DNA of 24,040 bases from a virus (Duplodnaviria; Heunggongvirae; Uroviricota; Caudoviricetes): the IMG/VR virus record IMGVR_UViG_2740892439_000001, positions 1 through 24,040 of that record; one strand, written 5' to 3'. Below the pieces are notes generated by a model, which ran no database searches, was not told the origin of the DNA, and saw nothing but the letters and a program-made list of their open reading frames with translations. Of this stretch, positions 172-22,512 are shown one piece after another. The position numbers and the translations under genes are program-made. Within the stretch, counting starts at the first letter, position 1. Every line of letters begins with the position of its first letter.

Positions 172-642
172 ATGAAAGTTATCAAGTATTGGAAAGTTCA
201 GCTTCTGCAGTTGTCTCAGCCCTCCAGCAATCTTTCCGGCATTATCAATGCCCGCACTCTGGTCGAAAGCCTGTTGTTTGAGGGGTACTCGAAAGATAAA
301 CCGAAAATTAACCTCGGTTCCGGAGTAAATATTGAGTTATTTACAGCACCCGATTCGCTGGAAACCCGTATCTTTCGTGACCGCCTCGTTGACAGTGTGC
401 GTTGCTTCCCGGTGTGTGAAGATGATGGCGACAAAAGTGAGGGGGTAGACATTACCATCCACCTTGAGCTCAGATTTCCAAATGCCGAGCCGTCATTGGT
501 GGCGCGGGCGCAGCAAAGGCGCCAGAAAAAATCCATGACCATGCCTGTATTAACTGCTTCCTTGGTCGCGGTCCGTGCCTTGGTGACTGCCACGTTGCCG
601 ACGTTAATAAGGCTCGCAGCTCCTCCTTCGAAGACGTGGTGA
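172..642 (+). CDS. Hypothetical protein; 3' end uncertain, a second frame is open 468-767 and looks more protein-like at its C-terminus (possible frameshift)
   Basis: ATG at 172 preceded by aaagga SD; N-terminal ~100 aa look like real protein (MKVIKYWKVQLL...). The track's ATG at 112 has no SD. Frame 0 is open from 468 to the tga at 765-767 with no ATG and ends ...KPVIKWLNENANPHTSVNIDATSAQLLTGEIGIHTEEFIKD. Confidence 0.4.
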   Translation: MKVIKYWKVQLLQLSQPSSNLSGIINARTLVESLLFEGYSKDKPKINLGSGVNIELFTAPDSLETRIFRDRLVDSVRCFPVCEDDGDKSEGVDITIHLELRFPNAEPSLVARAQQRRQKKSMTMPVLTASLVAVRALVTATLPTLIRLAAPPSKTW

Positions 643-892: not shown

Positions 893-1144
893 TTATTTAC
901 CCGCGCGCTTCGCGACCAGCTCATCTTCATTAACGCGATAACGCCAATATCGTTCAGGCTTAACCCAAACCACTTTATCACCGCTTACTTTGCGGAATTG
1001 GGTAATGACAGGTGTAGATAAAACAAGATTACCATCAGCATTTTCTTTCAGAAACTGCTCATTATCGAGTTTGACTAAATAATCAACTACGTCTTCCTGA
1101 TACAGGCAACCGTCATATTCTAACTGAGCCATCATCCACTTCAT
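893..1144 (-). CDS. Hypothetical small protein (83 aa from ATG 1144; the track's GTG at 1261 would give 122 aa but overlaps the upstream gene by 82 nt)
   Basis: Open frame with diverse composition (MKWMMAQLEYDGCLYQEDVVDYLVKLDNEQFLKENADGNLVLSTPVITQFRKVSGDKVVWVKPERYWRYRVNEDELVAKRAGK). Same strand and 35 nt downstream of the DUF2158-like gene. No family recognised. Confidence 0.45.
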   Translation of the reverse strand: MKWMMAQLEYDGCLYQEDVVDYLVKLDNEQFLKENADGNLVLSTPVITQFRKVSGDKVVWVKPERYWRYRVNEDELVAKRAGK

Positions 1145-1970: not shown

Positions 1971-3559
1971 ATGCCGTTACCATTCCCCTTCGATTTTAAA
2001 CATCCTGATTACCAGATGGTTTTTGAATGGCGGATGGAACGCTTACAGCGCATTCGCCAGAATCCTGAAATATTGCCTGCACTAAAACAGTTTTACCGAA
2101 CCAATCCGGCTCAGTTCATCATCGACTGGGGCATGACAACGGACCCGCGTAATATTGATTATGGCCTGCCGGTGACCATTCCGTTTTTACTATTCCCTAA
2201 GCAGGAGGAGTGGATCCACTGGATTATGGAACGCTGGGGTAATCGGGAGAATGGTATTACCGAAAAATCCCGTGAAATGGGGCTCAGTTGGACCGCGATC
2301 GGACTGGCCTGCTCGCTTTGTCTCTTCAACAAAGAAATGGTTATCGGTTTCGGCTCCCGTAAAGAGGAATACGTCGACAGCACTGGTGACCCGAAAGCAT
2401 TGTTCTGGAAGGCGCGCAAGTTCGTGGAAACACTACCTGTAGAGTTTCGCGGTTCGTGGAGCGAGAAGAAGCACGCGCCATATATGCGTGTTGAGTTTCC
2501 TGAAACTGGTGCCGTTATCAAAGGCGAGGCTGGCGATAATATTGGTCGTGGTGACCGTACCACGCTTTATCTGGTTGATGAGGCTGCATTCCTTCAGCGT
2601 CCTCTGCTGATTGATGCGGCGTTGTCACAAACCACCCGTTGCCGTATCGACCTGAGTTCAGTTAACGGCATGGCTAACCCGTTCGCTCAGAAGCGTCATG
2701 GCGGGAAGATACCGGTATTCACATTCCACTGGCGGGATGATCCTCGCAAGGATGAAGAGTGGTATCGCAGGGAATGCGAGAAAATCGATAATCCGGTGGT
2801 GGTGGCGCAGGAACTTGACCTGAACTACAGCGCATCTGCGGAAGGCGTCCTGATCCCGTCCGACTGGGTACAGGCTGCCGTCGACGCGCATATCAAACTT
2901 GGTATTCAGCCAACGGGCAAGCGACTTGGCGCGATGGATGTCGCTGATGAAGGCAGGGACAAAAATGCCTTTTCCACCCGTCATGGCTTCCTCCTGGAAA
3001 ATGTGCGGGAATGGTCCGGTGTGGGCAGCGACATTTACCAGTCTGTTGAGAAGGTCTTCGGCTTTTGCGAACAGGACAACCTCGAAGAGTTTCGCTTCGA
3101 CGAGGACGGCCTGGGCGCTGGCGTTCGCGGAGATGCACGAGCTATCAACGAACTGCGTAACGCTGCGCGCCGACCGTCAATACTCGCCACGCCGTTTCGA
3201 GGTAGTGGCGCGGTATTTGATCCGGATGATGAAGCTGTTCGCGGGGACAACGGGCAGGCTGCACGTCTGAACAAGGACTTCTTCGCTAACGCCAAAGCCC
3301 AGAGCTGGTGGCGGTTACGTAAACTTTTTCAGAATACCTGGCGCGCGTGGTTGAAGGTATGGCTTACAACCCGGACGAAATCATCTCAATCAGCAGTAGC
3401 ATGGCACTCAAAGATAAACTCATCATCGAGCTTTCGCAGCCGACCTATTCCATTAATGGTGTGGGAAAAATCGTTATTGATAAACAGCCTGATGGAACCC
3501 GGTCGCCAAACCTTGCCGACTCGGTGATGATCAGCTACGCGCCAATGAATTCAGCCTGA
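1971..3559 (+). CDS. terL: Terminase large subunit, interrupted by an apparent 1-nt deletion near 3345-3350 (frame 0 to frame 2)
   Basis: 518-aa ORF 1971-3527 with a nucleotide-binding motif region ([11 protein letters not shown]) and nuclease-like C-terminal half. Its last ~60 aa are low-quality, while the overlapping ORF 3347-3559 (frame 2) encodes a typical terminase C-terminus ([16 protein letters not shown]...[16 protein letters not shown]). The frames join if one g is restored in gcgcgcgtgg. Confidence 0.8.
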
Positions 3560-5682: not shown

Positions 5683-5696
5683 ATCGCAGGTAAACC

Positions 5697-6929: not shown

Positions 6930-6933
6930 TCCA

Positions 6934-7437
6934 ATGACTGCATATCTGTACCGGATGCCTGTTGGCATTGCCGGGACTATCTCTCGCCCGCAGGACTTAA
7001 CCGTCGAACCGGTGATCCTTAAATCCGCTAACGCCTTCGCTGCCTATGGTCTGGCTGGCAAATATGACGCTGACGGCTTTTTCGTGCCGCTGGCGGACGG
7101 TGACACCGCCGACAAGGTGAAGGGGATCTACGTTCGTCCGTATCCGACCACATCGCAGCCAGACATGGTTCGCCAGGTGGGGACGGATAAGAACTTCCCG
7201 GGTGACGCCATGAAGCGTGGCTACATGACCGTTAATCTCGGTTCTGATTTTGATGCCAGCACCATCAAAAAAGGCGACCCGGTATACGTTGTCGTCTCCA
7301 CTGATGAATCCATCAAAGTGCCGCTGGGCGGCTTCATGTCCACGTCCGTCAGTGGCAAAAACGTGGCGCTGACCAACGCCGAATTCACAGGGGCCGGTGA
7401 CGCTAACGGCAATGCAGAAATCTCCTGGAAGATTTAA
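6934..7437 (+). CDS. Capsid-associated cement/decoration-like protein
   Basis: 167 aa ORF immediately upstream of the major capsid gene, Gly/Thr/Val-rich beta-type composition; family assignment is tentative. Confidence 0.5.
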   Translation: MTAYLYRMPVGIAGTISRPQDLTVEPVILKSANAFAAYGLAGKYDADGFFVPLADGDTADKVKGIYVRPYPTTSQPDMVRQVGTDKNFPGDAMKRGYMTVNLGSDFDASTIKKGDPVYVVVSTDESIKVPLGGFMSTSVSGKNVALTNAEFTGAGDANGNAEISWKI

Positions 7438-7448
7438 GGAACAGACGA

Positions 7449-8390
7449 ATGATTACTTTTGATCAGGCAACCGTTGATAGCTCTGGTGCCTTTCTCATCG
7501 GGGAGCTGGAGCGACTCGACCAGACGCTGAACCTGCCGCTGGTGGGTTACACCTGGACCCGCGATATTCAGCTGCGTGAAGACGTTTCTATCGCAGATGA
7601 CATTTCCAGCTGGACTAACACCAGTTTTGGCGCTGCTGGTACTGGCGCAAATCCGAACGGTAAAAACTGGGTAGGCAAAGACTCCACTGCTATTGCTGGC
7701 GTGAATGTTGATATCGGCAAAGACGGCAATCCGCTGAACCTCTGGGGCATGGAACTGGGCTGGACCGTTGTAGAGCTGGCAGCAGCTCAGCAGGTAGGTC
7801 GCCCGATTGATACCCAGAAGTACGACGGGATGCAGCTCAAATGGCAGATGGACAACGACGAGCAGGTTTACATTGGCGATGATGCGCTCGGCCTGAAAGG
7901 GCTGGCAAACCTTGTCGGTGTGACGCTGAACAATGCGCCGAAGACCTGGGCGAATTCCACCAACGACGAGATTCTCGATAGCGTGAACAGCATTCTGTCG
8001 AATGCCTGGGCAGCATCCGGTTATTCCGTCGTGCCTTCTGATCTGCGCATTCCGCCAGAGCAGTATTCACTGCTGGCGAGCCGTAAGGTTTCCGAAGCGG
8101 GTAACCAGTCGCTGCTGACCTATCTGGCCGTGAACACTATCGCTTTCCACCAGAACGGCGTTCCGCTGGAAATCAAAGCGGTTAAATGGCTGAAAGGGCG
8201 CGGGGTTGGCGGTAAAGACCGTATGGTCGCCTACACCAACGACAAGAAATACGTGCGCTATCCGCTGGTGCCGTTGCAGAGCGTTCCTGTCCAGTATCGC
8301 GGTCTGTACCAGATTGCGACCTACTACGGCAAGCTCGGTGCGGTTGAGCCAGTGTACAAAGAAACCCTGTCCTACGTGGACGGTATCTGA
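7449..8390 (+). CDS. Major capsid protein
   Basis: 313 aa; position after scaffold and cement genes; followed by a strong hairpin; composition typical of DUF2184-type capsid proteins. Confidence 0.7.
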   Translation: MITFDQATVDSSGAFLIGELERLDQTLNLPLVGYTWTRDIQLREDVSIADDISSWTNTSFGAAGTGANPNGKNWVGKDSTAIAGVNVDIGKDGNPLNLWGMELGWTVVELAAAQQVGRPIDTQKYDGMQLKWQMDNDEQVYIGDDALGLKGLANLVGVTLNNAPKTWANSTNDEILDSVNSILSNAWAASGYSVVPSDLRIPPEQYSLLASRKVSEAGNQSLLTYLAVNTIAFHQNGVPLEIKAVKWLKGRGVGGKDRMVAYTNDKKYVRYPLVPLQSVPVQYRGLYQIATYYGKLGAVEPVYKETLSYVDGI

Positions 8391-8400
8391 TAACCAGAAC

Positions 8401-8416
8401 GGCCCCGAAAGGGGCC
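8401..8416 (+). other. GC hairpin (ggcccc-gaaa-ggggcc) directly after the major capsid gene; putative attenuator or RNA stability element
   Basis: Perfect 6-bp G/C stem with a GAAA tetraloop 11 nt after the capsid stop; no downstream U-tract; the SD (aggaaa) and ATG of the next gene follow. Confidence 0.45.
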
Positions 8417-8431
8417 AGAAGGAAACTTGAA

Positions 8432-8821
8432 ATGGCGAAAGAAAAGCTGGTTACCATCCATGTTCACACCCCGTTTACGCTGACGCTCGGCGATCAGTCA
8501 AAACAGGAGTTTGGCCGGGGACGGCATAACGTACCGGAAGAGGTTGCGTCGCACTGGTTCACCCAGGCGCACTCTGAGCTTTCCGAAAGCGTGATTAGCG
8601 ACACCGATGATCTGCAACCCATTATCGACAGCCTGCAAGCACAGATTGCCGACAAAGATAAGCAGATTGTCGATAAAGATCAGCTGATTGCCGATCTGAA
8701 AGAAGCGCTGCTCAAGCTGCAAGAGCAGAACGACAGCCTGCAAGCGCAGATTGCTGCCGCCCAGACTGGCGGTAATGGGGCGAAAGATGCCAAAGAATCA
8801 AAGCCTGCCAACAGTAAGTGA
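8432..8821 (+). CDS. Hypothetical coiled-coil protein
   Basis: 129 aa; aggaaa SD; C-terminal heptad-like region with a repeated DSLQAQIA motif. Confidence 0.55.
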
Positions 8822-9194
8822 TTTTCGGCGCGACTTTCCACAGTTTGCTGACCCTGCCAAATATCCCGAAGCACAAATCCAGTTTCGTCTGAATCTGGCT
8901 GATGTGCTGCTGAGCGAAAACGTCACCGGCAAAGAGTTGTTTCCGTACTTTGTCGAGTTGTTCGTGGCTCACTACATGACGCTCTGGGCGGCAGATAGCC
9001 GGGCAATGCTCGTCGGCGGCCCGGGTGGCTCAACCAATGGTGTTCAGTCCTCCAAGTCCGTTGACAAGGTAAGCGTCAGCTATGACACCAGCGCGACGCT
9101 AAACCCTGACGCAGGCTTCTGGAATAACACCCGATATGGCGCTGAATTTTATCAGCTGATCACGATGTTCGGTGCGGGCGGTCGCCAGCTATGA
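8787..9194 (+). CDS. Head-tail connector-like protein (DUF4054-like)
   Basis: Likely start at ATG 8787 ([33 protein letters not shown]...); the track ORF begins upstream at 8751. Confidence 0.55.
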
Positions 9195-9778
9195 GTTTCA
9201 AAAGTGGTGTAACAACGAGGGTTGATAACGCTCAGGCCATTCTGGATGCGCTCCGGTCGCTAACCAAAAAGGATGTGCTGGTGGGCATCCCGGAAGAAGA
9301 CAGCGAGCGTGAGGATGTTCCGTTTGGTAATGCGGGGATCGGCTACGTCAATGAATACGGCTCACCGGCGCAAAATATCCCCCCACGCCCGCACCTGATC
9401 CCCGGCGTTAAATCGGTAGAGGAACAGACAGTGCCGCAGCTTAAAGCAGCGGCGCAGGCTGCGCTTGATGGTAATGCGGCGGGTGCAGAAAGAGCGCTAA
9501 ACCGCGCCGGAACGCTGGCCGCCAATGGCGTCAGGCGTTACATGACTATTACCGGCTTTACACCGCTTGCTGATAGCACCGTTGAAGCCCGCGCGCGTCG
9601 AGGTCGCAAAGGGGCGAAAGCTGAGTTAGCACGCAGATCGGCAGACGGAAAGCTTAATGCTATCAACCCAGATTCTGGTCAATTGATAAGCAATGAGAAT
9701 GTAAGGCCGTTGATTGATACCGGACAATACCGCAGAGCCATTACCCATGTTGTGAGGGATAAAGATGCCGACTCTTGA
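9191..9778 (+). CDS. Virion morphogenesis / head-tail joining protein
   Basis: 195 aa; ATGA stop-start overlap with the preceding gene; C-terminal [15 protein letters not shown] resembles the conserved end of HK97 gp10-like proteins (from memory). Confidence 0.5.
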
Positions 9779-10154
9779 TGTAACAGACGTGCTTTTTGAC
9801 CCCGATTTTTGCGACTTCAACCTGTGGGTAACGCGTCGCGCGCAAACGGTGGACGATGACGGGATCGGCAGCGACAGCGAAGTTAAAACGCAGTTTGCCG
9901 GGGTTGTTACTGTTGACCGCTCCCTGGAAAACCGCCGCATGCAGGCCGGGCAGGTTATCAGCGGCGCGATTCTCATCGTGACAACTGAGCGGCTGACGCA
10001 GGGACAGACTGGTCGTGATGCCGATATCGTGACGTATCAGGGCCGTGATTATCGTGTGACCTTCGTCGACCCGTATACAGCTTATGGGGCCGGATTCGTT
10101 CAGGCGCATTGTGAGTTGATGCCGTTTGATGGGGGAACTCCGGTTGAGCAATAA
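9765..10154 (+). CDS. Head-tail joining / tail completion-like protein
   Basis: 129 aa ORF coupled to neighbours in the structural module. Confidence 0.5.
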   Translation: MPTLDVTDVLFDPDFCDFNLWVTRRAQTVDDDGIGSDSEVKTQFAGVVTVDRSLENRRMQAGQVISGAILIVTTERLTQGQTGRDADIVTYQGRDYRVTFVDPYTAYGAGFVQAHCELMPFDGGTPVEQ

Positions 10155-10692
10155 CACCAGTACAGAGCGCGGATGGTTAATACCAACCAGTGGCGATCTG
10201 GATTATGACGAAGCGCTCGACAGGCTGTTAAGCCAGTGGATGCGTAACGTTTCCGGTCTGTCTGCCGGGATGGTTCGCCCGCGCTGGCAGAAAGAGCAGC
10301 CGCCACTGCTACCGGCTGAAACGAACTGGTGTGCGTTTGGGGTTATCGGATGGTCAGGTGATGACAGTCCGGCATTCACCAGACAGACCGATGATGGCTC
10401 TAAGCTCTGGCGGCATGAAACGATTGAGTGTATGGCTTCGTTTTATGGTCCGGCGGGGATGGTGTATGCGTCCCGGTTTCGTGACGGTATATCTGTACCG
10501 CAGAACAATGCAGCACTGAATGCGCTGGGGCTGTCTCTTGGCGATTACACAGGTCTGACCCCCTTCCCTGAACTTATTAATCAGCAATGGGTCCGCCGCT
10601 ACGATATGACGGTGCGCCTGCGCCGGAAGGTTGTGCGCGAGTACGGTATTAAATCGCTGGTGGAAGCACCAGTCATCTTTTTCGGAGATTAA
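10126..10692 (+). CDS. Tail-associated structural protein (hypothetical)
   Basis: 188 aa ORF immediately upstream of the sheath gene; start uncertain. Confidence 0.45.
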   Translation: MMGELRLSNNTSTERGWLIPTSGDLDYDEALDRLLSQWMRNVSGLSAGMVRPRWQKEQPPLLPAETNWCAFGVIGWSGDDSPAFTRQTDDGSKLWRHETIECMASFYGPAGMVYASRFRDGISVPQNNAALNALGLSLGDYTGLTPFPELINQQWVRRYDMTVRLRRKVVREYGIKSLVEAPVIFFGD

Positions 10693-10695
10693 GCT

Positions 10696-11841
10696 ATGGC
10701 ACAGGGCTTGCCTGTATCAAACGTTGTTAATGTTGATGTGATCATGTCGCCGCGTGCAGCATCAGGGCGAAATTTTGGTGCATTACTCATTCTCGGCCCG
10801 TCCACAATCATTCCGGTAAGTGAGCGCATTCGCCGTTATTCTGCCGCGGAAGATATTGGAAAAGATTTTGGCGTGGAATCACCAGAATATAAGGCTGCGC
10901 AGGTGTTTTTCTCACAATCACCGAAACCTCAGGAGGTTTTTGTTGGTCGTTGGGTGAAAACGAAGGGTGACAGCGAACAGGCCACGCCTGAGACGCTGGA
11001 GCAGGCTGTGAATGCCATGCTCGATTATACTTCATGGTATGGGCTGGGGATTGCAGACGATGAAGATATTCCGGATGCAGACTGGCTGAAAGTGGCTGCG
11101 GCGATCGAATCCTCTTCTGTAAGCCGTATTCTGGCGATTACGACAAGCGATGAGAAATGCCTGCAGACTGCATCCAGCGATGATTTGGCATCAAAACTGA
11201 AAACCGCCGGATATTCACGCAGTTTTATTCAGTATTCATCGGGTAATAAATACGCTGCGTTATCTGCATTTGGCCGGGTATTCACGGTTAATTTCAATGG
11301 CAGTAATACCGCGATTACGCTCAAGTTTAAGCAGGAGCCGGGTGTCGGGTATGAAACACTGACAGTCAGCCAGGCATCGGCACTTGATGCAAAAAACTGC
11401 AATGTATTCGTGTACTACCAGAATGATACGGCTATCCTCCAGCAGGGAGTGATGGCTAACGGCGATTTCTTTGATGAACGCCACGGCCTGGACTGGTTAC
11501 AGAATTATGTGCAGACCAACCTCTATAACCTGCTTTATACCAGCACCACGAAAGTTCCCCAGACTGAAGCCGGTATTACCCGACTGTTATCAAATGTTGA
11601 AAAATCACTGGATCAGGCCGTTCAGAATGGACTGATTGCTCCGGGCGTATGGAACGGGGGCGACCTTGGTCAGTTGTCATCAGGTGACACACTGCCCAAA
11701 GGTTATTACGTATACGCCCAGCCGCTGGATGAACAGGCACAATCAGAACGTGAAGCCCGTAAGGCTCCGGTGATTCAGGCTGCAATAAAACTTGCAGGCG
11801 CGGTTCATTACGCTGACGTACAGATTAACGTTGTTCGCTAA
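10696..11841 (+). CDS. Tail sheath protein (DUF3383-like)
   Basis: 381 aa; placed directly before the tube and chaperone genes as in contractile tails. Confidence 0.65.
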
Positions 11842-11851
11842 GGGGAAGTGA

Positions 11852-12292
11852 ATGTCTACCTATTCTTTTATGGATGTCACTGCGACGCTGACCGGCCCGA
11901 CCGGTTCGATTGACCTCGGGTACGGTTCTGCAAGTTCTGAAGAGGGGATTGTGGTTGCGATGGGCGGTCCTAAAAACACCATGACCATCGGTGCTGATGG
12001 TGAAGTGATGCACAGCCTCCATGCAGATAAAAGCGGGACGATTACCGTTAACCTTCTGAAGACATCACCGACAAATAAAAAATTGTCGCTGGCGTATAAC
12101 GCACAGAGCCAGTCTTCTGCCACATGGGGGAATAACGTTATCGTGATCCGCAACAAGGTCAGCGGCGACATCATCACGGCACGCAGTGTTGCGTTCCAGA
12201 AACAACCGGATAATGCCAACGCTAAAACCGGTAATACGATGCCGTGGGTGTTTGACTGCGGCAAGATTGACCAGGTTCTCGGGGAGTTTTAA
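11852..12292 (+). CDS. Tail tube protein (DUF3277-like)
   Basis: 146 aa between sheath and chaperone. Confidence 0.6.
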   Translation: MSTYSFMDVTATLTGPTGSIDLGYGSASSEEGIVVAMGGPKNTMTIGADGEVMHSLHADKSGTITVNLLKTSPTNKKLSLAYNAQSQSSATWGNNVIVIRNKVSGDIITARSVAFQKQPDNANAKTGNTMPWVFDCGKIDQVLGEF

Positions 12293-12295
12293 TAC

Positions 12296-12748
12296 ATGGA
12301 ATTCGAAATCAAAGGCGTGAAATATCGCGTGGCAAAACTCAGCGTTTTTGACCAGCTGAAAGTGACCCGCAAACTTCTGCCGGTACTGGCGGGAATGATG
12401 TCAGATTTCGGGAGCATTCGCTCCCGTTTGCCTGCTGACGGCAAAATCGACACCGTGAAATTCGAGCAGTTAAAACCGGTGTTTGAAACCATGCTCCCGC
12501 GTATCGCTGAGGAACTGTCTTCCCTGACCGAAGATGACACCAGTGCGATTATTCATCCCTGTCTTGCGGTGGTATCGCGGCGTCATATGGACGGATGGGT
12601 TCCGGTATTTACCCAGGGCGAACTGATGTTTGATGATATTGACTTGCTGGTCATGCTGCATCTGGTGGCGCGGGTGGTCGCCGATTCGCTGGGAAATTTT
12701 TTGCCTACACCCCTTACCAGCACGACGCAGAGCCTGCAACAGGGCTGA
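12296..12748 (+). CDS. Tail assembly chaperone (gpG-like, zero-frame product)
   Basis: 150 aa; immediately upstream of the tape measure gene; contains the slippery site near its 3' end. Confidence 0.7.
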   Translation: MEFEIKGVKYRVAKLSVFDQLKVTRKLLPVLAGMMSDFGSIRSRLPADGKIDTVKFEQLKPVFETMLPRIAEELSSLTEDDTSAIIHPCLAVVSRRHMDGWVPVFTQGELMFDDIDLLVMLHLVARVVADSLGNFLPTPLTSTTQSLQQG

Positions 12749-12936
12749 CGTTTAACAGCCTGCCGGACGGGCTGTCTTACCTTCTCAATCCGGTTGACGC
12801 CGGGTTAATTCCTTATACAGCACTTAAAGATGGCTCTGTCGATTTGTACGACATTGCTCTCTTGAATGACCATCTGGCGGTAAAAGCGGATAACCAGCGG
12901 CGCATTGAGAAATGGAGAGAGGATAATGAACGCTGA
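12296..12936 (+). CDS. Tail assembly chaperone frameshift product (gpGT-like), made by -1 ribosomal frameshift at 12691-12703
   Basis: After a -1 slip, the frame is open for 79 codons from 12697 to the tga at 12934-12936, exactly filling the apparent 178-nt gap before the tape measure ATG at 12926. Confidence 0.65.
12691..12703 (+). promoter_or_regulatory. Programmed -1 frameshift slippery sequence G_GGA_AAT followed by T_TTT_TTG
   Basis: In the chaperone frame the codons are ctG GGA AAT TTT TTG; both overlapping heptamers fit the X_XXY_YYZ pattern. Confidence 0.6.
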
Positions 12937-14911
12937 AACTATTAAAGATTTCCTCGTCTCGCTTGGCTTCAGTGTGGATGATGCTGGAGCAAAAAAATTC
13001 GGTTCTGTCCTCGCCGGTACAACTGCAAATGTCATCAAAATGGGACTGGCCGTTGAAGGAGCTGCACTGTCCGTGGTGGCCTTTACGGCTAAGATTGCCT
13101 CCGGCCTGGATAATCTTTACTGGGCGTCACAGCGCACTGGCGCGACAGTACAGGGAATTCAGTCTATTGGCTATGCGGTTTCGCAGGTTGGCGGCAGCGT
13201 GGACGCTGCGCGATCTTCTCTGGAAAGTCTCTCCCGGTTTATTCGTAACAATCCCGGGGCAGAGGGATTTCTGAATCGCCTGGGGGTACAGACACGGGAT
13301 GCCAGCGGCAACATGCGCGACATGGCCGCTATCTTTACGGGTGTCGGACAGAAGCTCAGCAGCATGCCGTATTACCGGGCTAACCAGTATGCGCAGATGC
13401 TGGGCATTGACGAAAATACCTCATGCGATGCGCCGGGGTGTGGGTGATTTCTCCGGGCAGTACAGCGCAATGGCGAAAGCTATCGGCTTCAATGCTGACG
13501 AGGCGGCCAGAAGCTCCAACAAATTCATGACCTCCCTGCGCGAGTTCGGCGCGATGGCAGGCATGGCCCGTGACAAAATCGGCTCTAATCTTGCTGGTGG
13601 TCTGGCGGGTTCGCTGGACACACTGCGCCGCCACATCCTCGATAACTTCCCGCGCATCGAGCAGACCCTGACGAAAGCCATAAAAGGCATTCTGGCGCTC
13701 GGAGACATCATCGGGCGGCTGTTCTTCAGGCTAATTGAGGGAACATCCAGCCTTATCACCTGGTGGCAATCGCTGGATAAGCAAACGCGGGAGCTCATCT
13801 CGCTGTTTGGCGCGCTGACGATTGCGCTGCGCATTCTGAACAGTACGTTCTGGATGTCGCCGATTGGCCTCATTACCGCGCTGGCGGCGGGGATTGCCCT
13901 TCTGTGGGAGGACTATCAGACCTGGAAGGAAGGCGGCGACAGCCTGATTGACTGGGGCAAGTGGAAGCCGGAGGTCGATGCCGCGCTGAAGATGGTTCGT
14001 GGCCTGAAAGGGTCTGTTAATGAACTGGCGAAAGCGCTGGCGAAACTGCTCAATATTGACCCCAAATCATGGTCCCTGAAGTGGGATTTCAGCAACTTCA
14101 TCGACCAGATGGGCGAATTCAGCAAAATGCTGAACATGATCGCCGACCTGCTCAACGCTATCAAAGATGGCCGCTGGGCTGATGCCGTCAGCATCGGCAA
14201 ACAGATACTTAATCAGGCAGCGAAAATCCGTCAGCGATGCCGATGGTTACAGACAGCGCTAACAGTACTGCCGACTGGATTAAAGAGCACTGGGGATTCG
14301 ATCCCCGCAGTGTGGGCCGGACGGTACGCGGCTGGTTTGGTGATGATGAGCCGGAACAATATGCACAGGCTACGAAACGAGGAGAACGGAATAACAATCC
14401 GGGAAACCTTAATTTTGCTGGTCAGGCAGGGGCTTCTCTTGAACGCCCGGGCGGGCGATTTGCCAGATTTGAAACTGCTTTTGATGGATTACGGGCTCTT
14501 GCTCGTCAGTTAATGCTGTACGCCGGACGGGGAATAAACAGTGTGGAGAAAATTATCTCTACCTGGGCACCTGCGTCTGATAATAACAACACAACTGCGT
14601 ATATCAGGGCTGTATCGCAACGACTGGGAGTGGATCCCCGGGCTGCCCTGAATATGAGCGATCCGCAAACCATGTCAGCATTGATGAGCAGCATTATCCA
14701 GCATGAAAATGGAAGAAATATCTATTCTCGAGAGCTGATTAATAAGGCTGCCGTGGCGGGAATTAGTGGCAAAATGACAGAGGTTAACCAGCAAAATACT
14801 TACCACATTTACGGTGGCGGAGATCCGCACGCTGTCGGTAATGAGGTTGCACGTCGGCAACAGTCTGCAAATGCTCAGGTCATGCGAAGTAATCAGGTGA
14901 GGGTGGGTTAG
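12926..14911 (+). CDS. Tail tape measure protein, split over three frames by two apparent 1-nt indels (near 13433-13438 and 14213-14237)
   Basis: ORFs 12926-13447 (frame 2), about 13437-14513 (frame 0) and 14237-14911 (frame 2) are contiguous. The middle part has hydrophobic segments and a coiled-coil-like feel typical of tape measure proteins. The junctions give continuous protein if one g is removed from ccgggg and one base is added near 14230. Confidence 0.75.
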
Positions 14912-15498
14912 TGGATATTCTCTCTACACTTTTTCATCAGCAGAGCAGAAAAATAGGAATGATTGTTCCCAGTGTTGTTATTTCAGAGAAGCATACAGAT
15001 ATGCTTGAAATAACAGAGCATCCGGTAGAGGTCGGGGCCGCTGTCGCTGATCATGCCTATAAAAAACCGTCAGAAGTGGTGATGGAGGTTGGTTTCGCCG
15101 GTGGCGGCGCATTGCTGGATTTTGCCAGTAATCTGACGGCTACCAGCCTGCTCGGCCTGAGTCCTCAGCAGACGTATCAGGAGCTACTGGATCTGCAGGA
15201 AAGCCGTATCCCCTTCGATGTGGTAACCGGTAAACGACTGTACAGCAACATGTTGATCCGGGCGCTGGAAGTGACGACGGACAAGACAACCGAAAACGTC
15301 CTGTCCGCCGTCCTCACCCTGAGGGAGGTCCTTATCTCCCGGACACAGCAGATTACCGTCGCGGATAAAACCAACATGAAGGAAGGGGCCAGCACGTCGG
15401 CGGTACAGAACAGCGGCAACAAAACCACAAAGCCTCCAGATACTTCACTGCTGAAAAGCATCACGGGTAACGTGGCGTCATTACTGGGGGGCGGCTAA
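14911..15498 (+). CDS. Tail/baseplate assembly protein (hypothetical)
   Basis: 195 aa; GTG start overlaps the tape measure stop (TAGTG). Confidence 0.5.
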   Translation: MDILSTLFHQQSRKIGMIVPSVVISEKHTDMLEITEHPVEVGAAVADHAYKKPSEVVMEVGFAGGGALLDFASNLTATSLLGLSPQQTYQELLDLQESRIPFDVVTGKRLYSNMLIRALEVTTDKTTENVLSAVLTLREVLISRTQQITVADKTNMKEGASTSAVQNSGNKTTKPPDTSLLKSITGNVASLLGGG

Positions 15499-15800
15499 TG
15501 ACAATTCAGGAAATTCCGCTGACAGCGGACAACCAGCAGTTCAGCATCGTCTTAGGTGGTGTTACCTGGCGGATTAGCATCATATGGCGCGATCTTTACT
15601 GGATTATGGACCTGCAGAACGACAGAGGGGAGCCGGTAATCTCCGGTATTCCTCTCGTCACTGGCGCTGATCTGCTGGCGCAGTACGCCTGTATGGGGCT
15701 TGGTTTTAAGCTGGTGGTGGTCTGCGATGACAACACACAGGATTATCCCTCGAAAACTGATCTGGGTGGCCGCAGTCATTTACTGGTATCAACGGAGTAA
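15498..15800 (+). CDS. Small tail/baseplate protein (hypothetical)
   Basis: 100 aa; TAATG coupling. Confidence 0.5.
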   Translation: MTIQEIPLTADNQQFSIVLGGVTWRISIIWRDLYWIMDLQNDRGEPVISGIPLVTGADLLAQYACMGLGFKLVVVCDDNTQDYPSKTDLGGRSHLLVSTE

Positions 15801-15802
15801 GC

Positions 15803-16867
15803 ATGTCACAGAACTGGATGAGACATTTCGAGCTGCAGCTTGTGGACGGGAACGGTCAGGGAATTGAGCTAAGTGATTTCAAAGTCACCTTTACGATCGA
15901 CTGGTTCAACATCAGCAGCGCGTCCCGGGTAGGGACTATCAAAATTTATAACCTCTCGGCAGATACTGTGAACCGAATCACCGGGAAGGAATTTTCGAAA
16001 GTGCGGCTGATTGCCGGTTACGACGGTATCGCGCCGGAGGTGGCGGCAAGCGACGTCGGGACCGTGCGCGAAGTCGACGCGGCAGATGTGGGCCAGAGTG
16101 ATGGCCGCAACTACGGGCTGATTTTCAGCGGAGAAATTCGCTACTCGGTCACAGGAAAAGACAGCCCTATTGATTCCTATGTCCTGATTCAGGCAGCAGA
16201 TACGGATCTGGCATTTGCCACCAGTATAACCTCACAGACGCTGGCTGCCGGTTACACGGTCGCTGATGTGAACCGTGCGCTGATGAAAGACTTCGAAGCC
16301 AAAGGCGCGACCGAAGGCCTGACGCCTGAAATGCCTGCTACTGTATTCCCCCGGGGGCGGGTGCTCTTTGGCATGACGCGGCATCTTATGGATAACGTAG
16401 CCGGGCAATGTGGCGCAACATGGCAATTCGTGGACGGTCAACGCCAGATGGTGGCGAATAACGAATATGTTCATGAAGCGATTGTGCTCAACAGCGCCAC
16501 CGGGCTTATCGGCATGCCGCAGCAGACTATCGGCAACGGCGTAAACGTCCGCGCGCTTATTAATCCGAACATCCGGGTTAATGGGCTCATTCAACTGGAT
16601 CAGGCTTCCGTATATCGCACCGCGTTGTCGAACAACGATATTGCGATGGCTGGTGGGCAGATCACCGACCAGAACACGGACGGAAATATCACGCTAAGCG
16701 GCACCACAGCACAACCTGCCAGCATCGCAACGGATGGCGTTTATATTGTGCGCGGGATTATGTACACTGGCGATACAAGGGGCCAGGCGTGGTACATGGA
16801 TATGATGTGCGAAGCGCGTGGCGCGGCGGATCTTCAAAGTCAAGGAGCAATGAATCGGTGGGGATAA
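15803..16867 (+). CDS. Baseplate hub-like protein
   Basis: 354 aa; position between the tape-measure-distal genes and the central spike. Confidence 0.5.
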   Translation: MSQNWMRHFELQLVDGNGQGIELSDFKVTFTIDWFNISSASRVGTIKIYNLSADTVNRITGKEFSKVRLIAGYDGIAPEVAASDVGTVREVDAADVGQSDGRNYGLIFSGEIRYSVTGKDSPIDSYVLIQAADTDLAFATSITSQTLAAGYTVADVNRALMKDFEAKGATEGLTPEMPATVFPRGRVLFGMTRHLMDNVAGQCGATWQFVDGQRQMVANNEYVHEAIVLNSATGLIGMPQQTIGNGVNVRALINPNIRVNGLIQLDQASVYRTALSNNDIAMAGGQITDQNTDGNITLSGTTAQPASIATDGVYIVRGIMYTGDTRGQAWYMDMMCEARGAADLQSQGAMNRWG

Positions 16868-16869
16868 GA

Positions 16870-17400
16870 TTGAATAAGAAAGCCATTTTTATTGCAATAA
16901 GTTTACTTGTTCCGATGTCGGGATTAGCCGCTCCTGGGAAGTATGAAAAAATGGCTGTTGATTTAATGGATCAGCAAAAGTTTACGCAGTGGCAACATTA
17001 CGCCTCTGCTACTCCTTTTTTCGCTATGAATGGTCGCAGATTCGCCATGACCATTGATGATTTCGCGGATATAGTCAGCAACTCCTTTCAAGAATGCGAA
17101 GATCTGGATGCCTACACCAATCGGAAAGGAACTACGGATGATTGTAAGTCCTATGTTTACAAAGGCATAAAGGAGTGGGTAAACCTCTCTCAAGATAAGT
17201 CTGTTAGCGATACAGCATGGAAAATGGGCCAGCGCTATGCTTCAACACACGTAATCCTATTGCCCATAAAAACGCATGGGATTTCAATGGGATGGCGGCC
17301 GGTATTCGCGTTGCTAAATCTCAAGGTTATTAAGTCATGGATGCGCCGAAAATCATCGGATCTTTCCCGTGTAAAAAAGTGGCTGGGCGATGATTTTTGA
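16870..17400 (+). CDS. Accessory secreted protein with N-terminal signal peptide (function unknown)
   Basis: TTG start with a ggtgggga SD 6 nt upstream; N-terminus (M)NKKAIFIAISLLVPMSGLAAPG is a typical Sec signal; mature part has two Cys; about 33 percent GC in the first 60 nt versus about 70 percent in sampled structural-gene sequence. Confidence 0.55.
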   Translation: MNKKAIFIAISLLVPMSGLAAPGKYEKMAVDLMDQQKFTQWQHYASATPFFAMNGRRFAMTIDDFADIVSNSFQECEDLDAYTNRKGTTDDCKSYVYKGIKEWVNLSQDKSVSDTAWKMGQRYASTHVILLPIKTHGISMGWRPVFALLNLKVIKSWMRRKSSDLSRVKKWLGDDF

Positions 17401-17558
17401 CGTCCATAATATTATGGATGAACTGTTGCCAATTGCGCTAATTTTAACAAAATAATACTGGTTAACGCATTTTTTGAACCATCTGTACACAGTAGTTGTC
17501 TATACTTTACCTTAAAGGTAAACTCTGCGCTCCACTGATGTTCACTATGGGAGGGGAT
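17401..17558 (+). promoter_or_regulatory. AT-rich intergenic region with promoter-like hexamers and two palindromes (17404-17417 and 17506-17522)
   Basis: ccataatattatgg is a perfect 14-bp palindrome; tttacctt-a-aaggtaaa has perfect 8-bp arms. Candidate sigma70 elements: ttgtct (17496-17501), 17-nt spacer, taaact (17519-17524). gggagggg SD precedes the ATG at 17559. Confidence 0.4.
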
Positions 17559-17798
17559 ATGAGGGAAATCGTTAATCGTTACTTAGCCGCTGCCGGTAGT
17601 GTTATGGACATTATGCCGACTACAGATTACTGGCAATATGCTGCTTCTGGATCTGATTGTCGGGCAATAAGAAGTGATGTTAAAGTCATTGCAAGTGACA
17701 TGAACAGAGTTATCAGGTATGAGTTCAAAACCCCGCAAGCAGGCGGCCGTTCTCAAAAAGCGTCAGGAAAACAAAGCGTCGCAAAAAGCCGTTCCTGA
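17559..17798 (+). CDS. Small hypothetical protein (accessory cassette)
   Basis: ATG at 17559 with a strong SD; about 80 aa; the last ~27 codons overlap the next gene and look low-complexity, so the true 3' end is uncertain. Confidence 0.4.
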   Translation: MREIVNRYLAAAGSVMDIMPTTDYWQYAASGSDCRAIRSDVKVIASDMNRVIRYEFKTPQAGGRSQKASGKQSVAKSRS

Positions 17799-18291
17799 TT
17801 CGGATGGTATCGACGAAAATATTGATTCCTCGGAATATGATGAGTCTCAGGAAGTAGTGGAAAAGCTGTCTGCAGTTGCCAACCTTGATCCTGAGCTAAA
17901 ATCGAAGTTAACACCTGAACTTCTTGAGAGAGTTTCTAAGAATCCGAAGGTTATTGCCATGTTTCAGCAGGAGTCTTTTCAGGGACCACTCCCACCTCCT
18001 GCTATGCTCTTACAATATAATCAAATATTACCCGGCGGCGCTGAGAGAATTTTCAGGCTAACCGAAAAAGAGCAAGAGCATAGGCATAAGACGCAAAGCG
18101 ATGCATTACTTGGTGCGGTTTCACGCGACAAACGTGGGCAATGGATGGGATTTTGCATTGCAATGGTAGTGCTTATAATGGCTGCGTTTTTTGCTAATCG
18201 CGGTAACACTTGGTTCGCAGGTACTCTTGCTACTTTAGATCTCGTAGGATTAACTACAGTGTTTGTTTATGGTAGGAAGAAACCTAAATAA
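17719..18291 (+). CDS. DUF2335-like membrane protein (charged N-terminal domain plus two C-terminal transmembrane helices)
   Basis: 190 aa; motif GPLPPPAMLLQYNQILPGGAERIFRLTEKEQEHRH recalled as the DUF2335 signature; hydrophobic stretches WMGFCIAMVVLIMAAFFA and WFAGTLATLDLVGLTTVFVY; followed by a terminator. Confidence 0.6.
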   Translation: MSSKPRKQAAVLKKRQENKASQKAVPDSDGIDENIDSSEYDESQEVVEKLSAVANLDPELKSKLTPELLERVSKNPKVIAMFQQESFQGPLPPPAMLLQYNQILPGGAERIFRLTEKEQEHRHKTQSDALLGAVSRDKRGQWMGFCIAMVVLIMAAFFANRGNTWFAGTLATLDLVGLTTVFVYGRKKPK

Positions 18292-18306
18292 TCCATACAT
18301 CCTTTC

Positions 18307-18329
18307 AAACCCGCTTCGGCGGGTTTTTT
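18307..18329 (+). terminator. Strong rho-independent terminator
   Basis: aaacccgc-ttcg-gcgggttt stem-loop followed by a T-run, 16 nt after the stop of the DUF2335-like gene. Confidence 0.75.
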
Positions 18330-18348
18330 GCTTTCTGGAGCCTACTAA

Positions 18349-19103
18349 ATGGCAGTATCTGACCAGACCCGCAGCGGCGACCTTGCCGAAACATTCAAAT
18401 CTGAACGGGAAACAACAAAGAACCAGATCCGAGTCGCTTTGCCTGGCATCGTCCAGTCATTCGATCCTGACGCTGTGACGGCGGTTGTGCAGCTTCTATC
18501 CGTTCGGTTGAAACGGATAACGACGGCAATCGCGTTACCAAAAATTACCCGCTGCTGGTGGATGTGCCGGTGGTATTCCCGCGCGGCGGAGGCTGTACGT
18601 TGACTTTTCCGGTAAAAGCTGGGGATGAGTGTCTTGTCGTTTTTGCCGATCGTTGTATTGATTTCTGGTGGCAGAGCGGCGGGATACAGGAGACGATTGA
18701 TAACAGAATGCATGATTTATCGGATGCGTTCTGTATCGTCGGTCCGCAGTCTCTGGCGCAGAAAATCAGCGGAATCAGCACCAGCGCCGCGCAACTGCGT
18801 ACTGATGATGGCGCTGCGTTTGTGGAAGTGGCCGCAGGCCATAACATCACGGTTAAAACCCCCGGCGCGCTGACGGCGACAGCAGAAGGAGGAACCACGA
18901 TCACATCACCCACCATCACGCTAAACGGCAACGTGACAATAAACGGGAATCTCTCTCAGGGGATGGGCGAAAGCGGCGGCACCGCGACGATGCTTGGCCC
19001 TGTCACGGTGACTAACGATGTAAAAGCTGGTGGTAAGAGCCTGATGACGCACACGCACGGCGGAGTACAGACCGGCGGCGGTAACACAGGAGCGCCTAAC
19101 TGA
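18349..19103 (+). CDS. Baseplate central spike protein (gp138 / Mu gp45 / P2 gpV-like), interrupted by an apparent 1-nt indel near 18493-18497
   Basis: N-terminal ...IRVALPGIVQSFDPDAVTAVVQ (frame 1) and YPLLVDVPVVFPRGGGCTLTFPVKAGDECLVVFADRCIDFWW (frame 0) together form one OB-fold spike domain; Gly/Thr-rich beta-helix-like C-terminus; ggag SD before the ATG at 18349. Confidence 0.7.
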
Positions 19104-19456
19104 TGCGATACAGACGTGAAGACGCCGATGGCGATTACACCTTTGGCAGCGGTGATGACACCTGGCTGATTAACTCACCGGAGGCCGTGGCGCAGGCGGT
19201 AAAAACGCGATTCGAATTGTGGTATGGGCAATGGTTTCTTGACACCACTGAGGGGACTCCGTGGATCCAGTCCGTACTCGGTAAGCAGAAGCCGGAAACC
19301 TACAACCTGGCGATCCGTAAGCGCATCCTCGAAACGCGGGGCGTTAAATCAATCCTCTCTTTCAATACGACGGTGGATACCACGACCCGACGTGTCATGT
19401 TTTCCGCTGAAATCGACACTCTCTATGGAATAACGACTGTTACATCGGAGGCGTAA
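19103..19456 (+). CDS. Baseplate protein (gp25 / W-like)
   Basis: 117 aa directly after the spike, TGATG coupling. Confidence 0.5.
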   Translation: MRYRREDADGDYTFGSGDDTWLINSPEAVAQAVKTRFELWYGQWFLDTTEGTPWIQSVLGKQKPETYNLAIRKRILETRGVKSILSFNTTVDTTTRRVMFSAEIDTLYGITTVTSEA

Positions 19457-20652
19457 TGGCTCTGAACCTTGATTCTCTCGGTTTATCTGCAAAGGTAACC
19501 GCGGAGGGGATCAGTGCGCCTGATTATCAGACGATACTCAGCACCCTGATTAGCTATTTTCAGCAGATTTATGGCAGTGATGCCTACCTCGAACCGGACA
19601 GCAAAGACGGCCAGATGGTCGCTCTGGTGGCTCTGGCCATTCACGATGCCAACAACACGGCCATTTCTGTTTACCGGTCATTTTCTCCGTCGACGGCGCT
19701 GGACGATGCATTAACCAGTAACGTCAAAATTAACGGCATCACTCGCCGTGCTGCGACAAACTCTACGGTCGATGAGCTGATTGAAGGCGAAGCCGGAACG
19801 TTAATCACAAACGGGTCTGTGAAAGATGCCAACGGTATCATCTGGAATCTTCCTGCTCAGGTGACAATTGGTATTGATGGGACGGTTATTGCTACAGCGA
19901 CGTGTTCTGTTGCTGGTGCTGTGGCCGCCCCTGCCGGGTCAGTCAATAAGATAAACACCCCGACACGTGGTTGGGTATCAGTAACTAACCCGCAAGCGGC
20001 TACGGTAGGCGTTGCTGCCGAAACAAATGCTGAATTGCGTGTCCGGCAATCACAGAGCGTTGCTTTACCGTCTCTGACGCCGTTTGAGGCGGTAGATGGC
20101 GCGATAGCAAATATCAGCGGCGTAACGCGACACAAGCTGTATGAGAACGATACAGATACCACTGATGCAAATGGCCTGCCTCCGCACTCAATCGCCGCCA
20201 TTGTAGAAGGTGGTGATGCGACGGTCATTGCAAACAGCATTCGTGGTGTGAAAGGGCAGGGCGTAACACCCTACGGTAGTACGGTGATTGTTGTGCCTGA
20301 TAAGTACGGAAACCCTCACTCGGTAGGTTTTTCAAGGCCGGTCGATGTACCCATTTACGTCAAAATCACTATCGAACCTCTTACGGGCTACACATCCCAG
20401 GTTGGCGAAGAGATAAAGGCGGCTGTATCTGCCTACATTAACTCACTGGCAATCGGCGCCAGCGTTCTTCTCAGTCGCGTTTACTCACCGGCTAACCTTG
20501 GTGTTGTCAGTGGTGGTAATGCCAGGTATTACGACATTACCGAGTTGCTGATCGGGACGTCTGCCGGTGGCGTAGCTGCGGCAAACGTGGATATTGCCTT
20601 TGACCAGTCAGCATCCTGTGCCGTCAGCAATATTAATCTGGTGGTCTCATGA
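19456..20652 (+). CDS. Baseplate J-like protein
   Basis: 398 aa; position after the gp25-like gene; size and order match J / gp47-like baseplate wedge proteins. Confidence 0.6.
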   Translation: MALNLDSLGLSAKVTAEGISAPDYQTILSTLISYFQQIYGSDAYLEPDSKDGQMVALVALAIHDANNTAISVYRSFSPSTALDDALTSNVKINGITRRAATNSTVDELIEGEAGTLITNGSVKDANGIIWNLPAQVTIGIDGTVIATATCSVAGAVAAPAGSVNKINTPTRGWVSVTNPQAATVGVAAETNAELRVRQSQSVALPSLTPFEAVDGAIANISGVTRHKLYENDTDTTDANGLPPHSIAAIVEGGDATVIANSIRGVKGQGVTPYGSTVIVVPDKYGNPHSVGFSRPVDVPIYVKITIEPLTGYTSQVGEEIKAAVSAYINSLAIGASVLLSRVYSPANLGVVSGGNARYYDITELLIGTSAGGVAAANVDIAFDQSASCAVSNINLVVS

Positions 20653-22291: not shown

Positions 22292-22488
22292 TGGCAGGTA
22301 ATTACGCAGTCATTGAAAGTGGAATAGTTAAAAACATCATAATTGCGGAAAGCGGTTATGAATATGATGGTGCTGAACTTATCGAATATCCTGAAAGTGT
22401 ATTTTGCCAGCCTGGGATGTTTTATAACAAGGCAGACGGGCTATTTTACGATGATAAAGAATATTCAAAAATAAATAGCAAGAATTAA
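22291..22488 (+). CDS. Small hypothetical protein downstream of the tail fiber (possible fiber assembly/accessory factor)
   Basis: 65 aa, TAATG coupling, AT-rich. Confidence 0.4.
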   Translation: MAGNYAVIESGIVKNIIIAESGYEYDGAELIEYPESVFCQPGMFYNKADGLFYDDKEYSKINSKN

Positions 22489-22512
22489 GTCACTAAATTA
22501 CCAGAAAGCAAA

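What the first reader, a model, noticed from the sequence alone, without database searches (positions are those of the whole stretch)
13430..14240. Tape measure gene split into three ORFs by two single-base frame changes
Frame 2 (12926-13447) ends ...NQYAQMLGIDENTSCDAPGCG and frame 0 continues ...GVGDFSGQYSAMAKAIGF...; removing one g from the ccgggg run at 13433-13438 restores continuity. Frame 0 then runs to about 14235 and frame 2 resumes with ...SAMPMVTDSANSTADWIKEHWGF... (frame 2 is open from 14213). The three pieces are contiguous, collinear and together about 660 aa, a plausible tape measure length.
Basis: seen in the sequence. Interest (0 to 1): 0.45.

Follow-up and report, generated by a model that had tools for sequence, protein, structure and literature searches.

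The report
Tape measure gene broken by sequence errors
The prophage tail tape measure gene really is cut into three reading frames, but by three missing single bases that no related genome shares and that belong to nine such losses in this 24 kb, so it is most likely a sequencing or assembly error.

Summary
The three collinear ORF pieces exist: frame 2 at 12926-13447, frame 0 to 14513, and frame 2 at 14237-14911. Together they are one 662-aa tape measure gene of a SEN34-like (Brunovirus) myovirus prophage of E. coli.

There are three 1-bp deletions, not two:
- CCC>CC at 13419-13420
- GG>G at 13425
- GGG>GG at 14216-14217

None lies in the ccgggg run or in 14225-14240.

Re-inserting the three bases gives a 1989-nt gene with 0/1989 differences from three independent E. 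coli assemblies. The two-deletion site is intact in 63/63 related loci and the third in 54/54, and no complete RefSeq E. coli genome matches the deleted version.

Six more private 1-bp deletions break five other genes, including TerL and the spike. All nine remove a C or G from a run of 2-3, six of them in G-CC(C)-T context. Long homopolymers are untouched. A 13.1-kb tract shows 5 deletions against only 3 substitutions.

Best explanation: consensus or base-calling errors in the source assembly (about 0.8). Genuine, very recent decay is the main rival (about 0.15). Programmed recoding is essentially excluded. Interest is low.

The parts
12926..14911 (+). Tail tape measure gene (1986 nt here, 1989 nt / 662 aa when intact), with a C-terminal peptidoglycan-hydrolase-like domain
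   Evidence: The repaired translation matches phrog_2276 tape measure over 1-662 (E 7e-283). It is 0/1989 nt different from L012, L015 and L018. RefSeq annotates the homologue as 'lytic transglycosylase' and SEN34 as 'tail length tape measure protein'.
12926..13447 (+). Piece 1: frame-2 ORF. The true coding part ends at 13420; the last 9 codons (SCDAPGCG*) are out of frame.
13419..13420 (+). Deletion site 1: CC here, CCC in all relatives
   Evidence: 22/22 projected loci carry an extra C. 63/63 loci have C and G at sites 1 and 2.
13425..13425 (+). Deletion site 2: G here, GG in all relatives
   Evidence: 22/22 loci carry an extra G; 63/63. The best full-length match of this 91-nt stretch in 5426 complete E. 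coli genomes is 97.8%, that is, it carries both extra bases.
13425..14215 (+). Piece 2: true coding part in frame 0. The mechanical ORF is 13299-14513; its two ends are chance-open out-of-frame sequence.
14216..14217 (+). Deletion site 3: GG here, GGG in all relatives
   Evidence: 23/23 loci carry an extra G. 54/54 loci have a G run of 3.
14216..14911 (+). Piece 3: true coding part in frame 2 (first ATG at 14237). It includes the endolysin/transglycosylase-like domain, roughly 14246-14869.
   Evidence: tblastn gives frame 2 at 99.6%. phrog_873 endolysin and phrog_7182 tail injection transglycosylase match residues 442-649. PDB sequence matches are to Endolysin 7q47 and Gp29 9vvp.
468..468 (+). 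Same kind of private 1-bp deletion (CC>C), in a 198-aa hypothetical gene
918..918 (-). Same kind of private 1-bp deletion (GG>G), in the DUF6953 gene on the minus strand
3345..3555 (+). Two private 1-bp deletions (CC>C after 3345, CCC>CC after 3554) that break the large terminase TerL (540 aa when repaired, 518 aa ORF here)
   Evidence: 11/11 loci carry the extra C at each site.
17239..17240 (+). Private 1-bp deletion (CC>C) in a 154-aa hypothetical gene (16870-)
   Evidence: 12/12 loci
18492..18493 (+). Private 1-bp deletion (CC>C) in the 251-aa membrane-puncturing spike gene (18349-19103)

Best explanation
The tape measure gene of this SEN34-like prophage is intact in reality. Its apparent split into three ORFs comes from three single-base under-calls (loss of one C or G from a CC/CCC/GG/GGG run) in the consensus sequence the window was taken from.

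The same error mode produced at least six more 1-bp deletions in the window. They break TerL, the spike, and three small genes.

Shown:
- the three lesions and their exact sites;
- that they are private to this sequence;
- that the repaired gene is nucleotide-identical to intact genes elsewhere;
- that the window holds nine lesions of one kind in a biased sequence context.

Inferred: that the cause is technical (base calling or consensus building) rather than mutational. The sequencing platform cannot be identified from the sequence.
For: 1. Re-inserting C after 13420, G after 13424 and G after 14215 gives a 1989-nt ORF with 0 nucleotide differences from the genes in three independent E. coli assemblies: L012 (GCA_034496625.1), L015 (GCA_014642615.1) and L018 (GCA_048082605.1). 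It differs by 1-2 nt from three more.
2. The deleted versions occur nowhere else.
   - 63/63 fetched loci have both bases at sites 1 and 2, and 54/54 have GGG at site 3.
   - Exact-pattern scans gave 0 hits in viral contigs and metagenome contigs.
   - The gapped pattern found 48 viral and 3 genome contigs, all with the intact 28-nt form.
   - The best full-length match among 5426 complete E. coli genomes still carries both extra bases.
   - The frameshifted products are absent from the 15-billion-protein collection.
3. The lesion is not specific to this gene. Nine private 1-bp deletions in 24,040 nt interrupt six genes, and each repair restores the homologue's exact length: TerL 540, TMP 662, hypothetical 154, spike 251, hypothetical 198, DUF6953 82 aa.
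4. The lesions are uniform.
   - 9/9 are deletions and 9/9 remove a C or G from a run of 2-3.
   - 6/9 lie in G-CC(C)-T context against a 9.2% background (post-hoc binomial P 4e-5).
   - None of the 52 runs of 5 or more bases in 9993-23091 is affected.
5. The ratio of indels to substitutions is abnormal.
   - Window 9993-23091 differs from L015 by 5 one-base deletions and only 3 substitutions.
   - Window-private variants downstream of 9975 are 5 deletions against 1 substitution.
   - Phage lambda mutation accumulation gives 7.81e-9 substitutions and 1.42e-9 indels per base per replication, so indels are about 15% of mutations (bioRxiv 10.1101/2025.08.29.673000).
   - With that fraction, my hand calculation gives about 3e-3 for 3 or fewer substitutions before the fifth indel, and about 4.5e-4 for 1 or fewer.
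6. If uniform across a genome, 9 per 24 kb would mean roughly 1,800 frameshifts in a 4.8-Mb genome. That is implausible for a living cell but ordinary for a draft-quality consensus.
7. Gene-fragmenting false deletions at short homopolymers are a documented property of error-prone assemblies (PMC12007338).
Against: - No reads or quality values are available, so the technical origin is inferred, not shown.
- The pattern (only G/C runs of 2-3, long homopolymers intact) is not the classic long-homopolymer signature. That signature appears, for example, in comparator L026, whose indels sit in runs of 5-7 of any base. I cannot name a platform that produces the window's pattern.
- The context statistic is post hoc.
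- Prophages do decay by frameshifts, and deletions in G/C runs are also a natural mutation class.
- For the TerL segment the nearest comparators are only about 94% identical, so the indel-to-substitution argument cannot be applied there.
Confidence: 0.8

Rival explanations
1. The deletions are genuine mutations. The prophage is a recently inactivated, decaying element whose tape measure, terminase, spike and other genes have become pseudogenes through -1 frameshifts.
For: - Prophage decay is common. In the comparator set, L020 has an IS inserted in the same tape measure gene, L001 has an IS in the sheath gene, and L005-L007 are deletion remnants.
- All nine lesions fall in mononucleotide runs, where replication slippage occurs.
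- The absence of reads leaves this open.
Against: - There are zero substitutions in 1989 nt alongside three independent frameshifts.
- The 13.1-kb tract has 5 deletions against 3 or fewer substitutions, where about 27 substitutions would be expected at the lambda ratio.
- There are no insertions, no nonsense substitutions and no A/T runs among the lesions, and no hit in any of the 52 long runs where slippage is most frequent.
- None of the lesions is shared by any other genome or contig searched.
Confidence: 0.15
2. The frame changes are functional: either programmed ribosomal frameshifting or recoding within the tape measure gene, or three separately translated proteins.
For: - The three pieces sum to a net change of -3, so the last piece returns to the first frame.
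- A real programmed -1 frameshift site exists just upstream, in the chaperone gene. This gene region is therefore associated with recoding in general.
Against: - Every homologue has one uninterrupted ORF at these positions, so nothing is conserved.
- There is no X XXY YYZ heptamer at 13419-13425 or 14214-14217 (sequence read).
- Following the true protein would need two -1 shifts 5 nt apart.
- The ATG at 14237 has no Shine-Dalgarno-like sequence upstream (gcgaaaatccgtcagcgATG).
- The identical lesion type in five unrelated genes argues against a gene-specific mechanism.
Confidence: 0.02

Closest known systems
Tape measure protein of Salmonella phage SEN34 (Brunovirus; YP_009191622) and its E. 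coli prophage orthologues (e.g. WP_000990882.1 of E2348/69, WP_264829545.1)
   Same: - The position is the same: after the tail assembly chaperone and DUF6889 gene, and before the Dit-like baseplate gene.
- The E. coli orthologues are 98-100% identical in nucleotides over the whole gene. SEN34 is 89% identical over the first ~1500 nt.
- The repaired length is 662 aa.
- SEN34 is a viable temperate phage with myovirus morphology (PMC5261728).
   Different: - The window copy lacks three single bases and therefore reads as three ORFs.
- SEN34 carries a different C-terminal module; its similarity ends near window 14360.
Gene-fragmenting indel errors in error-prone genome assemblies (as catalogued e.g. 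by Kastor, PMC12007338)
   Same: Single-base false deletions at mononucleotide runs split otherwise conserved genes. Many genes in one assembly are affected. The lesions are recognisable by comparison with close relatives.
   Different: - Only G/C runs of 2-3 in a G-CC(C)-T-like context are hit, and long homopolymers are spared.
- In the nanopore data of that paper most deletion errors follow runs of 4-5.
- In comparator L026 the indels sit in runs of 5-7.
Programmed -1 frameshift of tail assembly chaperones (lambda G/GT type; from established knowledge, Xu et al. 2004)
   Same: It occurs in the same gene neighbourhood. The window has a canonical G GGA AAT heptamer at 12691-12697 in the chaperone frame, and a -1 frame open from 12643 to 12936 that contains the DUF6889 segment.
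   Different: That signal lies in the chaperone gene upstream and is conserved. The tape measure frame changes have no slippery site and are not conserved.

Membership tests
Phage tail tape measure protein | Sequence membership in a curated or clustered tape measure family | tested here: met
   The repaired protein matches phrog_2276 'tail length tape measure protein' (E 7e-283, residues 1-662 on profile 21-659/673), plus five further tape measure PHROGs. Pfam PF10145 (22 bits against a cut-off of 33.2) and TIGR01760 (18.1 against 28.8) fall below their thresholds.
Phage tail tape measure protein | Gene position between the tail assembly chaperone (with frameshift extension) and the distal-tail/baseplate genes, downstream of sheath and tube | tested here: met
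   The gene order is sheath 10696-11841, tube 11852-12292, chaperone 12296-12748 (PF21822 in homologues), DUF6889 12772-12933, TMP 12926-14911, Dit-like 14911-15498.
Phage tail tape measure protein | A single continuous ORF whose length sets the tail length | tested here: not met
   In the window as written the gene is in three frames. It is continuous (662 aa) in 27 fetched homologues. The relation to tail length is not testable here.
Programmed ribosomal frameshift / recoding site | The frame change is conserved in homologues | tested here: not met
   63/63 and 54/54 loci are in frame at the three sites.
Programmed ribosomal frameshift / recoding site | A slippery sequence at the shift site | tested here: not met
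   There is no X XXY YYZ heptamer at 13419-13425 or 14214-14217. The only canonical heptamers found lie in the chaperone gene at 12691-12703.
Genuine prophage pseudogene (mutational decay) | The lesion is inherited, i.e. shared by related genomes | tested here: not met
   The lesions are private to the window in every collection searched.
Genuine prophage pseudogene (mutational decay) | Accompanying neutral substitutions in natural proportion to indels | tested here: not met
   The TMP has 0 substitutions against 3 indels. The 13.1-kb tract has 3 or fewer substitutions against 5 indels. The natural ratio is about 5.5 substitutions per indel in lambda.
Sequencing / assembly indel error | Many lesions of one type spread over unrelated genes of the same sequence, in a systematic context | tested here: met
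   Nine 1-bp C/G deletions fall in six genes. Six of the nine are in G-CC(C)-T context (P 4e-5, post hoc).
Sequencing / assembly indel error | Reads or independent resequencing disagree with the consensus at the site | not testable with these tools
   No reads, quality values or source accession are available.

The most novel reading that the evidence does not exclude
The nine deletions are real and were made by a strongly frameshift-biased, context-specific process (loss of one C in G-CC(C)-T) that acted on this prophage without leaving base substitutions. An example would be an unusual polymerase or a damage-driven -1 slippage signature confined to prophage DNA.
Probability: 0.04. Interest if true: 0.5.

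Novelty: not a real feature. Interest (0 to 1): 0.06.

Why it matters
There is little biological significance. The gene is an ordinary, well-populated tape measure of a known prophage family.

The practical value is as a quality flag. This window, and probably its whole source assembly, carries about 1 false deletion per 2.7 kb at short G/C runs. Any 'split gene', 'pseudogene' or 'frameshift' seen elsewhere in it (TerL, the spike and others) should be treated as suspect until checked against reads.

If the lesions were real, the prophage would be defective in packaging, tail assembly and puncturing.

Tried and rejected
Removing a g from ccgggg at 13433-13438 makes an open frame but gives SCDAPG in place of the conserved LMAMRR. 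Alignment places the lesions at 13419-13425 instead.
- **The source or any sharer of the deletions.** Exact scans of viral, metagenome and genome contig collections found none. The same was true of 5426 complete E. coli genomes and of exact-protein look-ups of the fragments.
- **The 224-aa C-terminal piece as a separate gene.** It is on record as a separate gene in 7 contigs. These turned out to be deletion remnants (L005-L007) or contigs with little or no upstream sequence (L008-L010), each with different or no upstream sequence. They do not share the frameshift.
- **Methylation-motif errors.** Only the site at 918 lies in a CCWGG (Dcm) site, so this was rejected as a general explanation (contexts).
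- **Classic long-homopolymer error.** The long runs are intact, and the pattern contrasts with L026.
- **Programmed frameshifting.** Rejected: no conservation and no slippery site.

Full report
**What is in the window**

The window is the late-gene region of a SEN34-like (Brunovirus) temperate myovirus prophage of the E. coli type. The gene order is:
- small terminase, then TerL (1971-3590)
- portal and head genes
- sheath (10696-11841) and tube (11852-12292)
- tail assembly chaperone (12296-12748)
- a DUF6889 segment (12772-12933)
- the gene in question (12926-14911)
- Dit-like baseplate protein (14911-15498), plug, hub, spike, baseplate J and fibre genes

About 325 of 5426 complete E. coli genomes carry the tape measure segment at 80-99% identity. 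The cultured phage SEN34 carries it at 89% over its first 1500 nt. SEN34 is a viable temperate phage with myovirus morphology (PMC5261728).

**Checking the observation**

The three pieces are real:
- A frame-2 ORF runs to the TGA at 13445-13447.
- A frame-0 ORF is open from 13299 to 14513.
- A frame-2 ORF is open from 14213, with ATG at 14237, ending at 14911.

tblastn with an intact homologue maps residues 1-165 to frame 2, 168-457 to frame 0 and 432-662 to frame 2.

Global alignment with intact copies from strain TUM1880, E2348/69 and CFS3246 shows three separate single-base deletions in the window:
- AATACCCTCATGGCGATG has become AATACC-TCAT-GCGATG. This is CCC>CC at 13419-13420 and GG>G at 13425.
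- AATCAGGGCAGC has become AATCA-GGCAGC. This is GGG>GG at 14216-14217.

The intact reading is ...DENTLMAMRRGVGDF... and ...KQILNQGSENPSAMPMVTD.... The ccgggg run at 13433-13438 is unaltered. Frame 0 runs on by chance to 14513 rather than ending near 14235.

**What the gene is**

With the three bases restored the ORF is 1989 nt and 662 aa.
- It matches PHROG 2276, 'tail length tape measure protein', end to end (E 7e-283), and several other tape measure PHROGs.
- Pfam PF10145 and TIGR01760 give only sub-threshold hits.
- Residues 442-649 match endolysin and 'tail injection transglycosylase' PHROGs.
- By sequence they also match PDB chains named Endolysin (7q47) and Gp29 (9vvp). This explains the RefSeq name 'lytic transglycosylase'.

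**Are the frame changes biology or artefact?**

Five lines of evidence point the same way.

1. The repaired gene is identical elsewhere.
   - It has 0 differences in 1989 nt from the genes in three independent E. coli assemblies (GCA_034496625.1, GCA_014642615.1, GCA_048082605.1).
   - It differs at 1-2 positions from three more.
   - 27 fetched loci have an uninterrupted collinear 662-aa ORF.

2. The deleted forms are found nowhere else.
   - 63 of 63 loci have both bases at the first junction, and 54 of 54 have GGG at the second.
   - Exact scans for the deleted forms found nothing in the viral or metagenome contig collections.
   - A gapped pattern that would accept either form found 48 viral and 3 genome contigs, all with the full 28-nt form.
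   - The best full-length match to 13380-13470 in the complete E. coli genomes is 97.8%, that is, with both extra bases.
   - The fragment proteins are not in the 15-billion-protein collection.

3. The tape measure gene is not special.
   - Comparison with the nearest relatives shows six more 1-bp deletions private to the window.
   - They follow positions 468, 918, 3345, 3554, 17239 and 18492.
   - They interrupt a 198-aa hypothetical gene, DUF6953, TerL (twice), a 154-aa hypothetical gene and the spike.
   - Restoring each base restores exactly the homologue's length: 198, 82, 540, 154 and 251 aa.

4. The nine lesions are uniform.
   - All are deletions, and all remove a C or G from a run of two or three.
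   - Written on the C strand, six are G-CC(C)-T, against 9.2% of such runs in the window (post-hoc binomial P 4e-5).
   - None of the 52 runs of five or more bases between 9993 and 23091 differs from the relative.

5. Substitutions are almost absent.
   - From 9993 to 23091 the window differs from L015 by five 1-bp deletions and only three substitutions.
   - Among variants private to the window downstream of 9975, there are five deletions and one substitution.
   - Phage lambda mutation accumulation gives about 5.5 substitutions per indel: 7.81e-9 against 1.42e-9 (bioRxiv 10.1101/2025.08.29.673000).
   - With that indel fraction, my hand calculation for so few substitutions before the fifth indel gives about 3e-3. 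Using private variants only, it gives about 4.5e-4. This is before counting the uniform direction, base and context of the lesions.

A density of nine frameshifts per 24 kb, if general, would mean on the order of 1,800 in a 4.8-Mb genome. That is not credible for a living strain but ordinary for an unpolished consensus. Gene-fragmenting false deletions at short homopolymers are a documented assembly artefact (PMC12007338).

**Best explanation and its limits**

I conclude with about 0.8 confidence that the three frame changes are consensus or base-calling errors and that the real gene is intact.

I cannot show this directly without reads. I also cannot name the platform. The pattern differs from the long-homopolymer indels seen in a clearly error-prone comparator, L026, whose indels sit in runs of 5-7 of any base. 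Only one site lies in a Dcm motif.

For the TerL segment my comparators are only about 94% identical. There the evidence is only that 11 of 11 relatives carry the extra bases.

**Rivals**

Genuine recent decay (about 0.15) remains possible. Prophages of this family do decay: there is an IS in the same gene in L020, an IS in the sheath gene of L001, and L005-L007 are deletion remnants. It would, however, require an extraordinarily frameshift-biased process that leaves no substitutions.

Programmed recoding or three separately expressed proteins (about 0.02) is contradicted by three things:
- the intact homologues;
- the absence of any slippery heptamer at the sites;
- the need for two shifts 5 nt apart.

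**Comparison with what is known, and verdict**

As a gene this is an ordinary member of a large tape measure family, with a C-terminal lytic domain. As a 'split gene' it is most likely not a real feature.

The useful outcome is a warning that this sequence carries about one false deletion per 2.7 kb at short G/C runs. Novelty: not a real feature. Interest: low.

Noticed in passing
window 12643-12936 (slippery heptamer 12691-12697): The tail assembly chaperone gene (12296-12748, frame 2) contains a canonical lambda-like slippery heptamer G GGA AAT, followed by A AAT TTT and T TTT TTG. The -1 frame is open from 12643 to 12936 and contains the segment that RefSeq annotates as a separate 54-aa 'DUF6889 family protein'. 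This looks like the conserved G/GT-type programmed -1 frameshift, so DUF6889 is probably the C-terminal extension of the chaperone rather than a gene of its own.
   Followed up: partly
L005 2306-2980, L006 3638-4312, L007 417-1091: The exact 224-aa C-terminal piece of the tape measure protein occurs as a free-standing ORF in remnant prophages. There an integrase/Lar-like region is joined directly upstream of the ATG (equivalent to window 14237), and the baseplate and fibre genes follow. The junction coincides with the boundary of the lytic module, and the SEN34 similarity ends about 120 nt further on (near window 14360).
   Followed up: partly
window 2800-9992: This stretch carries many window-private substitutions spaced in multiples of three (third codon positions). 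Downstream of 9993 the window is nearly identical to L012, L015 and L018. This marks a mosaic recombination boundary near 9993, with a head-gene allele not sampled among the fetched relatives.
   Followed up: partly
window 17377-18317: A variable cargo slot lies between the hub-region genes and the spike. The window, L012 and L015 carry a 190-aa DUF2335 protein (17719-18291). L004, L011 and L014 carry a different 190-aa protein plus a YafO-family toxin at the same place.
   Followed up: no
L026 (GCA_974496755.1) and L020 (GCA_048070825.1): Comparator L026 has many genes broken by 1-bp indels in homopolymers of 5-7 bases, with the tape measure split 139 + 533 aa. This is a different and more typical error signature. 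L020 has a DDE transposase (IS) inserted in the tape measure gene, which is a genuine disruption.
   Followed up: partly
window 794-797: There is a possible tenth 1-bp deletion (GGG>GG) relative to L082. It lies at the very edge of the homologous segment, so it may be an alignment-end effect.
   Followed up: no
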